This document shows positions 24,001-27,000 of a stretch of 64,000 bases of DNA, one piece after another. Made by a program: the position numbers. Source of the DNA: an uncultured bacterium (GTDB lineage Bacteria; Fidelibacterota; Marinisomatia; Marinisomatales; UBA1611); the NCBI GenBank assembly GCA_965660855.1, contig CBFIBM010000006.1, positions 32,001 to 96,000 on the forward strand. The letters run 5' to 3'. Every line of letters starts with the position of its first letter. The first letter of the stretch is position 1.

Positions 24001-27000
24001 CTTCGTATTGTAGATAACTTCATACCTTTTAATAAACCTTCTTCTTCTGCTTCAGGTGAAAGAGAAATAATAGTACCATTCGGACAATGTGAAGAAAGAA
24101 TCGCAACAGGACGTTTTTTTAAGGAAGGATCTATAATTTGCTCTGCCTGAAGCTCTATACCTTTAAGACGTATATGAAAAACGTCTTTTACTTTCATTGA
24201 TGTTTTACCTAATTCAAATAGTTTCTAAAAGAATAAAGGAGAACACCATTAATACGAAAATCATCTGTACTATCAATTTTGATAATTGGAAATTTTGGAT
24301 TTCTAGGATGAAGCTCTACTCCATTACTATTTGGAACATAACATTTTAATGTTGCTTCTCCATTAATTAAAGCAACAATAATTTGTCCAGAACGAGCAAT
24401 ATTTGTTTTTTTTGCAACAATAAAATCACCATCATGAATATGCTCTTCTATCATTGAGTCACCTTTAACCTGTAAAACATAATGATCTGGATGTAATAAT
24501 GAGGGTGGTACATCTATCATTTCAGAGTTTTCTAAAGCTTCAATAGGTTCGCCTGCAGCAATCAAGCCCAATAATGGCAAACGAGCTTTTGTAGTTGTAT
24601 GATTTTCATTCTGGTTAAGAATGAGTGCTCGTTTACCATTTGGTCCTTTTATACGTGATAGATAACCCTTTTCTTCTAGGGTCTTTACATACCAATTTAC
24701 TGTCCCTAATGATCCGAACCCTAAAGTTGCCATAATTTCTTCATAAGATGGAGATTGACCATTCATTAAAGTGAATCGTTGAATAAAGTTTAAAAACTTT
24801 TCCAATTTTGGAGACAGCATCTTATTCATGAGGTAATAGATAAGTTTATAATTGCTTTTCCATCCCAAACAACAGATTGTGGATATATATTTTTTTTATG
24901 GCTATTTAAACGTGATACAGCACGTAGCACTTCAAAGGATGGTTTCTTTTTATCTTTTCTTTTTTTCAAATATTTCATAATAATAATCTCTTTTTTAAAT
25001 TTACTCGTAAGTTACTCGTAAGTATTATACAAAAAATTTTCTTTATGTCCAAATAAAAAGCCCCGTTTGGGGCTTTTTATTTGATTTTATAGTTATTATA
25101 TCGTTATTTAAACAGGAGCAATCCAAAGTCCAATAAACAACAATAAACCTGTTACAGTATGCATTATGATTGTACCCCAATTTGCTGGTTCTAGTAACCT
25201 ACTATTATAGTGCTTATATAAAGTTTGGATAGCCCTAAAACCAAAATATGCTGCTAAAAGAGATATCAAAGTTTCTTGAGGTAGTTTTTCACTTAAAACA
25301 AGTGCTATAATACTTAAAAATGCCCCGACTACTAAAGAAACATAGCCGGCTCTTGCTTTTTCTGGACCAAAAACTACGATTAATGTATTTTTACCAGATT
25401 GTTTATCACTATCGTGGTCTGGAAATTCATTAACATAAACTACCGCAGCTATTAATAAACCTATTGGTATTCCAATTAAAAAAGCTTCTGGTAAAAGAAT
25501 TCCAGTTTGTACTAAAGCACTTCCAGCAACCATTAAAGGACCAAAATTTAACCCTATTAATAACTCTCCTAGACCTTTTCTTGATGAAAACTTGAATGGT
25601 GGAGCAGTATAAAAAAGCCCAGAAAGGAAGCCTATTAAACCTAACCAAAGTATTGAATAACCTGCTTTTACAATTAGAGGAATACCAGCTAAAGCACTCA
25701 AAGCAAATGTTACAATAGCTAACTTCAACATACCTTCTGGAGAAATAAGTCCCATCTGAATACCTCTTCCCCCTCCATTGAGGCCTTTATTGCTATAATT
25801 ATAATTTATTTCATCCGTACCACTTATGTGATCAAAATAATCATTTGAGGTATTTGTCCCAATTTGTAATAAAGATCCTCCCAGAGCTGTAAGTGCTAGC
25901 CAACCCCACTGTATAGGGTAACCTGCAAATTTTGCAATAGCTGCTCCAACAAAAATAGGAACTAAAGTTGCAGATAAAAAGGGTAACCTCATGATAACAA
26001 CCCAAGAAAATATTTTAGTCATTAAATCAATTTTAGGACGAACTTCATCTGCTGTTTTATCTTTTAATGGAGTAGTAACACCACAGTAACCGATATGCTC
26101 TCCGTCTTTTGACTTCGTTGGAGTTATTTTAATACGAGAAGGTAACTCAGAACCATCTTTATGCAAGAAAACAGTGTCTCCTTCCCAGGCACCTTTTTCA
26201 ACAGCCTCAGCTAACCAGCCTACTACATGACCAAGTACTATTTGACCATCACTGAAATCACTCACTCTCATTTTACCAACGACTTCTTCTTCACTATAAC
26301 CAAATAGTTCAACTGCTCCTTGGCTGAATGTTTCGACTTTACCATCAACATCACATGTTATAACACTTTTTAAATTATCATTCATAGCTAATAATACCTT
26401 TTTATATAAATTAATGTTTAAAATTTACAATAGTAATTAAAGCGGTGAAAAACGAAAATTAGATTGGGTAAAATATAGGCCTACTTGGAGCCACATCTAA
26501 ATTCCAGTTAGGAATTTGAATTTGTAAAAAACCAAAAGAGTCTTCAATTGAATTATCAATATATAATAACTCAGATATAGTTTTACCTTTTTTAAAAAAT
26601 CTATGGTGATTACCTAATAATCCATTATCATCAGCTTTATCAATAGATGGTATATCCACTAATAGATGTTGAATTGAAAGGTCTTTTATATATTCAATAG
26701 CTTCTGAAGTAAAAAAAGGTGCGGGAGATTCATCATAGTTTCTACTAAGCTTGAAATCAGAGTTTGGTAATGTTCTAATGATCAAAGAATCTATAGTATT
26801 TTTTACTTTTTCTTTAATCGACTCTTTTGTAATTACTAAATCCGAAACAGTATGAGCGTGATAAGTATCGCTAGTATCTGAAATATCTTTTGGATCTACC
26901 GTTATTAATCTAGATGGGATAAATCCTCTAGGGCAAAAATCTACTATTTTTTCTTCGATGTCAATTATGTGTCCTGCGCATTCTGTATGGGTCCCGGTAC

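What a model noticed while it worked through the whole genome (the two positions that open the first line are those of the whole stretch)
25108..26385. PAS sensor fused to MenA prenyltransferase in a lineage that cannot make the naphthoquinone ring
The MenA-type prenyltransferase carries an N-terminal PAS domain, a fusion kept at 69-93% identity in the family. Neither MenB nor futalosine-pathway MqnA/D is found here or in four near-complete relatives, so it reads as a sensor-coupled salvage enzyme for scavenged naphthoquinone head groups.
Evidence so far: PAS_9 + UbiA; TIGR00751 over cutoff (97); full-length fusion in 12 of 30 relatives (92); 119 of 120 top homologues PAS+UbiA (149); MenB over cutoff 0 of 5 (159), PF02621 0 of 5 (160), controls ring; no paper (158).
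(Added by a program. Inside this text positions count along the whole contig: contig position 32,001 is position 1 of the stretch shown here. "Call 12" and the like, gene names such as g00115 and contig names such as C1 are that model's own, and its searches are not shown. The text may have been shortened before it was handed on; [...] marks where a part breaks off. The agent that wrote the report below was given it as the finding of a first reader that could run no searches.)

Follow-up and report, generated by a model that had tools for sequence, protein, structure and literature searches.

The report
PAS-fused enzyme replacing the menaquinone operon
Many oxygen-breathing marine SAR406 bacteria carry, in place of the whole vitamin K2 gene cluster, one membrane enzyme that attaches the lipid tail and bears a strongly conserved PAS domain, so they probably finish their respiratory quinone from a ring taken from outside, or from a ring made by an unknown route.

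Summary
The fusion is real: 25108-26385 (-), 425 aa, PAS plus an intact MenA/UBIAD1-type domain. The host is a Marinimicrobia genome. In 251 genomes of the phylum, 35 with an unbroken PAS-MenA frame (some cut by contig ends) have no MenB, against 90 of 251 overall. The one genome with both carries a decayed fusion. The one MqnA/D hit lies on an archaeal-looking contig. In one genus the men operon and the fusion occupy the same slot between the same flanking genes. A second, split-barrel-MenA fusion fills the role in 39 other genomes. Both fusions fall outside the operon-MenA clade. Best reading: the only candidate quinone prenyltransferase of aerobic lineages, working on an imported naphthoquinol, most likely giving demethylmenaquinone. 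'Sensor' is not shown: flavin-PAS motifs are missing and no importer was found. One Gemmatimonadota genome keeps both systems intact. No paper found. This scan noted the fusion before on three other genomes.

The parts
25108..26385 (-). PAS-MenA fusion gene, 425 aa (P0001)
   Evidence: a contig from one RNA library spans 25073-26404 (contigs do not prove transcription)
26071..26367 (-). PAS domain, residues 7-105; R40, V41, F44, S45, W57, F73, G102 in 53 of 53, C11 in 52 of 53, C101 in 51 of 53, H53 in 46 of 53
   Evidence: best PAS structure 3lyx, Z 17.1, rmsd 1.9, 108 aligned
25120..25995 (-). MenA/UBIAD1-type membrane prenyltransferase domain, residues 131-422
   Evidence: best structure UBIAD1 8djk_B, Z 26.9, rmsd 2.9, 270 aligned
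25813..25845 (-). first aspartate-rich motif N181-D185-D191
   Evidence: 53 of 53 at N181, D182, D185, D191; aligned to UBIAD1
25405..25431 (-). second aspartate-rich motif N319-D323-D327
   Evidence: 53 of 53; aligned to UBIAD1
25050..25083 (.). 15-pair hairpin just downstream of the stop codon, probable terminator
   Evidence: listed on the + strand; a consensus match only
26459..27232 (-). cyclase-family gene (PF04199); upstream marker of the slot; also flanks the men operon in G196
20011..24868 (-). lexA, imuB-like and dnaE2-like genes; downstream marker of the slot, not part of the function
   Evidence: the dnaE2 label is my reading of the sequence and was not scanned
62236..63623 (+). 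Rieske protein and cytochrome b of a bc-type complex, a quinol-oxidising partner that needs a quinone pool
57043..57924 (-). heme O synthase, one of the two other UbiA-family genes found in this genome
   Evidence: TIGR01473 271.6 > 210.3

Best explanation
The protein is an orphan member of the MenA/UBIAD1 branch and the only candidate quinone prenyltransferase of aerobic SAR406 genomes that have no ring pathway. It joins a long polyprenyl diphosphate, made in the cell, to an imported unmethylated naphthoquinol (DHNA or a breakdown product of it). Where MenG is missing the product is a demethylmenaquinone-type carrier for complex I, the bc complex and the aa3-type oxidase; where MenG is present it is menaquinone. 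The cytoplasmic PAS domain most likely binds the scarce head group, or responds to its redox state, and gates or feeds the active site. Shown: the fusion, intact catalytic motifs, fold, mutual exclusion with the men operon, shared slot, decay beside a men operon, separate clade. Inferred: quinone as product (about 0.88), imported naphthoquinoid ring (about 0.65), unmethylated ring, and every statement on what the PAS domain binds.
For: MenB is over cut-off in 90 of 251 genomes but in 0 of 35 with an unbroken fusion frame. The 36th carrier, G135, has a full men operon and a fusion with residues about 148-373 deleted, an in-frame stop and changed invariant PAS residues. PF02621 is found in 1 of 36 carriers, on a contig with an archaeal-type primase and 44% GC against 37.5% at the fusion locus. 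Four genera (g6, g14, g15, g56) contain both states. G196 has cyclase-trpB-like-tetR-menG-menI-menF-menD-menB-menA-menC/E-lexA, while G225 of the same genus and this window have cyclase-PAS-MenA-lexA. A MenI-like thioesterase lies beside the fusion in 11 of 80 loci, and menG follows it directly in G158. G185 (2 contigs, 95% complete) has two UbiA-family matches only: this fusion and one that by its score and place is the heme O synthase, which I did not scan. NuoH and two polyprenyl synthases are found in 5 of 5. A Rieske hit at E<=1e-8 is found in 35 of 36 carriers, in 32 of them the close ortholog. Strong NrfD-type subunits (E<1e-20) occur in 4 of 36 carriers against 25 of 30 MenB genomes, which fits an aerobic chain. 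A Rieske Asn-to-His change near the cluster occurs in 16 of 27 MenG-less carriers and 0 of 23 MenG-bearing genomes (a column picked after the fact, so a lead only). The PAS half is more conserved than the enzyme half in distant members (40-65% against 29-46%). Salvage of DHNA by menA+menG is known (PMC9704088 abstract; PMC4746308 passages).
Against: No importer was found: the ABC binding protein that sits beside another orphan MenA in six genomes has no match in 35 of 35 carriers. G253 (Gemmatimonadota) keeps a full men operon with its own menA and an intact PAS-MenA, so the two are not always alternatives. Absence of menG does not prove demethylmenaquinone: 39 species predicted to make it were measured with menaquinone (PMC13386864 passage). 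11 of 27 MenG-less carriers keep the Rieske Asn, and the 16 His cases reduce to about 5 changes on the tree. The enzyme is outside the operon-MenA clade, so DHNA as substrate is not guaranteed. Free DHNA oxidises readily in air (recalled), which makes supply in oxic seawater doubtful. Genomes are MAGs or SAGs of 80-99% completeness, and kin are not independent.
Confidence: 0.45

Rival explanations
1. It works like animal UBIAD1: it prenylates an already methylated ring (menadiol, from scavenged phylloquinone or menaquinone) and gives menaquinone directly, which is why MenG is dispensable.
For: MenG is missing in 28 of 36 carriers but present in 34 of 39 split-barrel-MenA genomes. The closest solved sequence and structure is UBIAD1, although no E. 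coli-type MenA appears in those lists for comparison. UBIAD1 needs a reductant, assumed to reduce menadione (PMC4398444 passages). A canonical MenA did not accept menadione (PMC6461227 passages), so a separate clade would fit a separate substrate, and so would G253 keeping both enzymes.
Against: menG lies directly behind the fusion in G158, and 7 of 35 unbroken carriers have a MenG hit. A MenI-like gene precedes it in 11 of 80 loci. The Rieske and NrfD patterns lean to a higher-potential quinone.
Confidence: 0.2
2. No salvage: the cell makes the ring itself by an unrecognised route (a third naphthoquinone route, or a benzoquinol such as gentisate or homogentisate), and the fusion is the tail-attaching step of a new respiratory quinone pathway.
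For: No importer was found. The genome has genes that read as chorismate and tryptophan synthesis (labelled by eye). HPPD, which makes homogentisate, is found in 25 of 28 MenG-less carriers. A 2026 survey says many lineages seem to have no quinone pathway and that other quinones may await discovery (PMC13386864 passage).
Against: HPPD lies in a tyrosine-breakdown operon with FAH and an HmgA-like gene in the own genome and in 6 of 6 other genomes checked, one of them MenB-positive. It is not found in G185, G230 or G161, and is found in 17 of 30 MenB genomes. UbiD is found in 1 of 36 carriers and CADD in 18 of 36. None of 59 members matches the homogentisate phytyltransferase model at E<=1e-15. 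No neighbour is constant across 80 loci.
Confidence: 0.2
3. On the role of the PAS domain only: it is a cofactor-bearing O2 or redox sensor (heme, flavin, or ArcB-like thiols) that switches the enzyme on and off.
For: PAS fold with NifL, Aer and DOS among the structural neighbours. Two near-invariant cysteines, C11 in 52 of 53 and C101 in 51 of 53. PAS cysteines of E. coli ArcB are oxidised and reduced by quinones (PMC11620690 passages). H53 falls near the place of the FixL heme ligand (spacing recalled, not tested).
Against: H53 is replaced by N, P or Y in 7 of 53. Invariant Phe73 aligns with an Asn of NifL that I recall as a flavin contact. Val41 stands where I recall the LOV cysteine. The best PAS match, 3lyx, lists no ligand in its title. 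A non-PAS split-barrel domain occupies the same place in a related clade.
Confidence: 0.2
4. The enzyme makes a prenylated product that is not a respiratory quinone, and these cells import finished quinones.
For: Some genomes have neither MenB, nor a match to the fusion, nor MenG (G187, G219, G237, 87-96% complete). G253 keeps both systems.
Against: Shared slot with the men operon, neighbours menI and menG, and decay beside a men operon. In the MenB genomes the men genes form one cluster, so one unassembled contig would remove all three markers.
Confidence: 0.08

Closest known systems
MenA, 1,4-dihydroxy-2-naphthoate polyprenyltransferase (TIGR00751, PRK06080 models)
   Same: Best NCBIfam families for all 59 aligned members. 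Both aspartate-rich motifs and the conserved tyrosine (Y259) are intact; their equivalents are needed by E. coli MenA (PMC4106721 passages).
   Different: N-terminal PAS domain. Own clade (support 98-99), apart from 10 operon MenAs (98-100). Under all six PRK06080 cut-offs. Not found with menB in 35 of 35 unbroken Marinisomatota carriers.
UBIAD1 (animal menaquinone-4 synthase, prenylates menadiol)
   Same: Best solved match by sequence (E 5e-11) and by fold (Z 26.9). Works without a ring pathway and, on a methylated ring, without MenG.
   Different: About 20-23% identity. No PAS domain in the matched chain. Substrate of the fusion is untested.
menA+menG salvage of DHNA in Porphyromonas pasteri and lactobacilli
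   Same: Late step kept while the ring steps are missing (PMC9704088 abstract; PMC4746308 passages).
   Different: Those keep menG; 28 of 36 carriers here do not. No fused domain is mentioned in what I read. Here the hosts are free-living marine aerobes.
Split-barrel (PNPOx_N)-MenA fusion
   Same: Related orphan clade. Same genomic slot in genus g14. MenB over cut-off in 0 of 39 (G227 has a contig-end fragment that is probably a true MenB). No overlap with the 36 PAS carriers.
   Different: The N-terminal domain is unrelated; its best solved matches are general stress protein 26 and HutZ. MenG is present in 34 of 39.
Cofactor-binding PAS sensors (FixL/DOS heme, NifL/Aer FAD, LOV FMN, ArcB thiols)
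   Same: PAS fold; cytoplasmic position next to a membrane domain (topology inferred).
   Different: Flavin motifs are not kept, the histidine is variable, and the attached module is a biosynthetic enzyme, not a kinase or cyclase.

Membership tests
MenA (DHNA polyprenyltransferase) | score over the TIGR00751 equivalog cut-off | tested here: inconclusive
   P0001 115.5 > 102.15, but members from G156 and G051 score 88.7 and 69.8 and an operon MenA 272
MenA (DHNA polyprenyltransferase) | UbiA fold with two aspartate-rich motifs and the conserved tyrosine | tested here: met
   N181/D185/D191, N319/D323/D327 and Y259 in 53 of 53; model pLDDT 84; Z 26.9 to UBIAD1
MenA (DHNA polyprenyltransferase) | groups with the MenA of men operons | tested here: not met
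   separate clades in both quick trees, 62 and 50 rows; no bootstrap or AU test was run, and only 10 operon MenAs from two phyla were included
MenA (DHNA polyprenyltransferase) | genome encodes the ring steps menFDHCEB | tested here: not met
   MenB 0 of 35 unbroken carriers; MenD 0 of 5 over cut-off; met in 1 of 3 Gemmatimonadota carriers
MenA (DHNA polyprenyltransferase) | decarboxylative prenylation of DHNA | not testable with these tools
   needs an assay
menA+menG salvage module | MenG/UbiE methyltransferase present | tested here: not met
   0 of 5 over cut-off; a hit in 8 of 36 carriers; 3 of 3 Gemmatimonadota carriers have it
UBIAD1-type menadiol prenyltransferase | prenylates reduced menadione | not testable with these tools
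   only fold and motif likeness
homogentisate prenyltransferases | match to the homogentisate phytyltransferase model NF009525 | tested here: not met
   not among the families of P0001 at E<=0.1 or of 59 members at E<=1e-15
PAS domain | PAS profile and fold | tested here: met
   PAS_9 39.9 > 27, TIGR00229 33.9 > 22.9; Z 17.1 to 3lyx
heme-binding PAS (FixL/DOS) | invariant proximal histidine | tested here: inconclusive
   H53 in 46 of 53; equivalence to the FixL ligand is recalled, and the FixL match covered residues 9-41 only
FAD-binding PAS (NifL/Aer) | flavin-contacting asparagine in the G-beta strand | tested here: not met
   Phe73 (53 of 53) aligns with the NifL Asn; the role of that Asn is recalled
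LOV domain | cysteine-bearing flavin motif | tested here: not met
   residues 40-45 read R-V-S-x-F-S with no cysteine; motif recalled, register judged by eye

The most novel reading that the evidence does not exclude
The fusion defines an unrecognised way to a respiratory quinone, spread among aerobic marine bacteria and archaea. The PAS domain is a working part of the enzyme (it captures, protects or activates the ring) and not a signal sensor. The ring is not DHNA, and the product is a higher-potential quinone to which the bc complex has adapted more than once. The split-barrel fusion is an independent solution to the same problem.
Probability: 0.25. Interest if true: 0.88.

Novelty: new variant of a known kind. 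Interest (0 to 1): 0.66.

Why it matters
If the best reading holds, abundant uncultured marine aerobes are vitamin-K-ring auxotrophs, which gives a concrete supplement to try for cultivation and a new cross-fed metabolite in seawater. About 74 of 251 genomes of this phylum (35 PAS plus 39 split-barrel carriers) respire with no recognised ring pathway. A recent survey names such lineages as an open gap (PMC13386864). If no ring is imported, the gene marks a new quinone pathway. Either way the question can be tested with one gene in E. coli. A PAS domain that is better conserved than the membrane enzyme it is fused to is also unusual in itself.

Tried and rejected
Complex prediction of the PAS domain against the enzyme domain gave 'no answer' (score 0.01); it is evidence neither way. 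ESM Atlas returned only generic PAS clusters. A hidden men pair in the own genome was rejected: the MenB-like and MenC-like neighbours on C5 score best as enoyl-CoA hydratase and DgcA-type racemase. MqnA/D in G248 was set aside as probable archaeal contamination. The genomes behind L110 (titled Chloroflexota) and L144 (titled Nitrospina; it has a PF02621 hit) were not counted, because their loci look like misbinned Marinimicrobia contigs: L144 shares its neighbours with G206 and G214. CADD as partner was rejected (18 of 36, absent from G185 and G063). The cyclase gene as partner was rejected (21 of 80 loci, and it also flanks the men operon). UbiD route: 1 of 36. PF04209 missed the HmgA-like gene, which I then identified weakly by TIGR01015 and operon context. 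A stand-alone form of this PAS subtype was not found: of 120 short hits 73 run into MenA sequence, 35 end within the PAS or linker, and 12 have unrelated tails, mostly on short contigs; longer fused forms were not searched separately. No cytochrome b column separated the groups. RNA evidence is contigs only, from runs chosen with this stretch, so it cannot rank expression; imuB and dnaE2 were uncovered in 4 of 4. Promoter-like sites were at chance level (15 found, 17.3 expected). My Fisher test (p 9e-7) overstates, because kin are not independent. The careful tree did not finish; quick trees are reported (12 long or outgroup rows were dropped in the second). Flavobacteria, Chloroflexota and archaeal carriers could not be tested for menB because I had no genome handles for them. 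My early note that G135 ended at a contig end was wrong. Supplements of PMC13386864 (Table S1, Text S1) were not opened and may list Marinisomatota genomes.
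Full report
Observation. The start and end given are window coordinates. They hold one minus-strand ORF of 425 aa with PAS_9 at residues 7-102 and UbiA at 141-395. 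TIGR00751 is passed narrowly (115.5 against 102.15), and all six PRK06080 MenA models match below their cut-offs. 119 of the 120 best homologues listed are PAS+UbiA, and one is named as from Marinimicrobia. The model has mean pLDDT 84. Its best structural matches are UBIAD1 (Z 26.9) for the membrane part and the PAS domain 3lyx (Z 17.1) for the N-terminus. Both aspartate-rich motifs and the family tyrosine are present in 53 of 53 non-redundant members. The equivalents are needed for E. coli MenA activity (PMC4106721, passages). A hairpin follows the stop codon, and one RNA-library contig spans 25073-26404, a weak hint of a single-gene transcript.

Pathway census. I searched the same 251 genomes of the phylum (at least 80% complete) with the protein and with family models. 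36 genomes, the own one included, hold the fusion or its PAS-bearing start. MenB is over cut-off in 90 of 251 but in only one of the 36, G135. G135 has a full men operon, and its fusion has lost residues about 148-373, carries an in-frame stop and has changed several invariant PAS residues. PF02621 is found in 7 of 251, and among the 36 only in G248, on a 6.5-kb contig with an archaeal-type primase and higher GC, which I read as contamination. MenD is under cut-off in 5 of 5 and UbiD is found in 1 of 36.

MenG is under cut-off in the own genome and four near-complete relatives, and has a hit in only 8 of 36 carriers, against 159 of 251 over cut-off overall. This is therefore not the menA+menG salvage described for Porphyromonas pasteri (PMC9704088, abstract) and lactobacilli (PMC4746308, passages).

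Synteny. In G196 the region between the cyclase gene and lexA holds trpB-like, tetR, menG, menI, menF, menD, menB, menA and a menC/E fusion. In G225, of the same genus, and in this window the same two markers flank the fusion alone. In genus g14, G193 has tetR-menG-menI and a split-barrel-MenA where G230 has the PAS fusion. A MenI-like thioesterase lies beside the fusion in 11 of 80 GTDB loci, and menG follows it in G158. The direction of exchange is not settled and may differ by lineage. No neighbour is constant.

Need for a quinone. The own genome has three UbiA-family genes: heme O synthase, a DGGGP-synthase-like gene and this one. G185 (2 contigs, 95%) has two matches, one of them the fusion. 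NuoH and two polyprenyl synthases are found in 5 of 5. The window itself encodes a Rieske/cytochrome b pair, and an aa3-type subunit I follows on the contig. Strong NrfD-type subunits occur in 4 of 36 carriers, 25 of 30 MenB genomes and 10 of 12 split-barrel genomes. So the carriers look like plain aerobes whose chain needs a quinone and whose only candidate for the tail-attaching step is this protein.

Family and spread. In two quick trees of the enzyme domain, the PAS-bearing rows form one clade (support 99 and 98), apart from ten men-operon MenAs (98 and 100). A second fusion, PNPOx_N split barrel plus a related MenA-like domain, is present in 39 further genomes with no overlap. 34 of these have MenG and none has MenB over cut-off, though G227 has a probable fragment. 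A split-barrel-like protein that reduces menaquinone and menadione is known (Ddn; PMC11841060, passages), which makes a ring-handling role plausible for that domain but does not show it. The PAS fusion also occurs in records named Gemmatimonadota, Euryarchaeota (with an added EF-hand pair), Cryomorphaceae, Flavobacteriaceae and Dehalococcoidia. Of three Gemmatimonadota carriers, two lack MenB and PF02621, and one, G253, keeps an intact men operon beside an intact fusion. That is the clearest case against strict exclusion. In 151 Gemmatimonadota genomes only G253 had the fusion.

The PAS domain. In the most distant members it is 40-65% identical to the query while the enzyme half is 29-46%. Short database hits are nearly all fragments of the fusion. 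R40, V41, F44, S45, W57, F73 and G102 are invariant, C11 and C101 nearly so, and H53 varies in 7 of 53. Phe73 aligns with an Asn of NifL. From recalled motifs this argues against a LOV or NifL-type flavin site and leaves heme doubtful. An invariant arginine with aromatic residues would suit an aromatic acid or quinol, but that is inference, since I had no coordinates. Quinone-driven thiol switching in a PAS domain has a precedent in ArcB (PMC11620690, passages).

Which ring. Three readings remain. First, an imported unmethylated naphthoquinol giving demethylmenaquinone (0.45). This fits menI and menG as neighbours, the aerobic gene set, and a Rieske Asn-to-His change found in 16 of 27 MenG-less carriers and 0 of 23 MenG-bearing genomes, with 5 changes on the tree. 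The column was picked after the fact and its effect on potential is unknown. Second, menadiol giving menaquinone, as UBIAD1 does (0.2; PMC4398444 and PMC6461227, passages); absence of menG is an imperfect predictor of DMK (PMC13386864, passage). Third, an endogenous ring by an unknown route (0.2). HPPD is common in carriers (28 of 36) but also in MenB genomes (17 of 30), sits in a tyrosine-breakdown operon, and is not found in G185. No importer was identified: the ABC binding protein found beside another orphan MenA and a TonB receptor in MenB-less genomes has no match in 35 of 35 carriers.

Literature and earlier notes. Searches for menA + PAS domain + prenyltransferase + fusion + menaquinone and for PAS domain + UbiA + prenyltransferase + fused found 0 papers. 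Marinimicrobia + menaquinone gave 5 papers, 4 listed, none on this topic by listing. Marinisomatota + quinone gave 32, 20 listed; I read passages of one, which names the phylum once, in a figure legend. The library lacks most subscription papers. This scan noted the same fusion on three other genomes and the split-barrel fusion on one. Those notes are not independent support.

Verdict. A real, unpublished variant of the MenA/UBIAD1 kind that stands in for the whole menaquinone operon. Salvage is likely but unproven, the usual DHNA-plus-MenG form does not apply to most carriers, and 'sensor' is one of several possible roles for an unusually conserved PAS domain. Interest 0.66.

Noticed in passing
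L186-L189 (G235, G153, G132, G001): Operon of tetR (42-47% identical to the tetR before a men operon, seen in 3 of the 4 loci), an NMT1-type ABC transporter, an orphan MenA-like gene and a TonB-dependent receptor, followed in G235 by the split-barrel-MenA; all in MenB-less genomes. It looks like a quinone head-group uptake and salvage locus. The binding protein is found in 6 of 80 genomes.
   Followed up: partly
L034-L039, L083, L084, L186: PNPOx_N split-barrel-MenA fusion in 39 of 251 genomes, including the genus with 0.7-1.1 Mb genomes, and more distant forms in families f27 and f29; next to menG in G122 and G120.
   Followed up: partly
window 62236-62790: Rieske protein has His in place of Asn five residues after the CPCHGSGF box; the His form is found only in PAS-MenA genomes without MenG (16 of 27 against 0 of 23).
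   Followed up: partly
P0152 and its cluster: Marine euryarchaeal version with an EF-hand pair in front of the PAS domain (EF-hand-PAS-MenA, 541-556 aa).
   Followed up: no
L075:6997-7569 (G135): Decayed PAS-MenA (large internal deletion, stop codon) in a genome with a full men operon.
   Followed up: yes
L074 (G248:C95): Futalosine-pathway genes with an archaeal-type primase on a contig of a bacterial MAG; probable contamination.
   Followed up: yes
L079:11452-13386: MenC-MenE fusion (645 aa) in the men operons of families f1 and f5.
   Followed up: no
L020-L023, L104, L119, L137, L155; own genome C9: CADD gene next to the fusion on either side in 14 of 80 loci; present in 18 of 36 carriers and 2 of 30 MenB genomes, so enriched but not required.
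   Followed up: partly
window 20011-24868: lexA followed by imuB-like and dnaE2-like genes, a mutagenesis cassette; a good sigma-70-like site (11 of 12) at 25051-25024 overlaps the hairpin end.
   Followed up: no
window 51957-56531: 1524-aa protein with an AMP-binding-like N-terminal part and a long C-terminal region ending in a possible acetyltransferase fold (read by eye, not scanned).
   Followed up: no
L176:1585-2886: UbiA-family frame running into an Hsp20 domain in a Gemmatimonadota genome; it may be a frame artefact.
   Followed up: no
G187, G219, G237 and family f13: Genomes of 82-96% completeness with no match to any MenA-like query and no MenB; either a missing contig or full dependence on imported quinones.
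   Followed up: no
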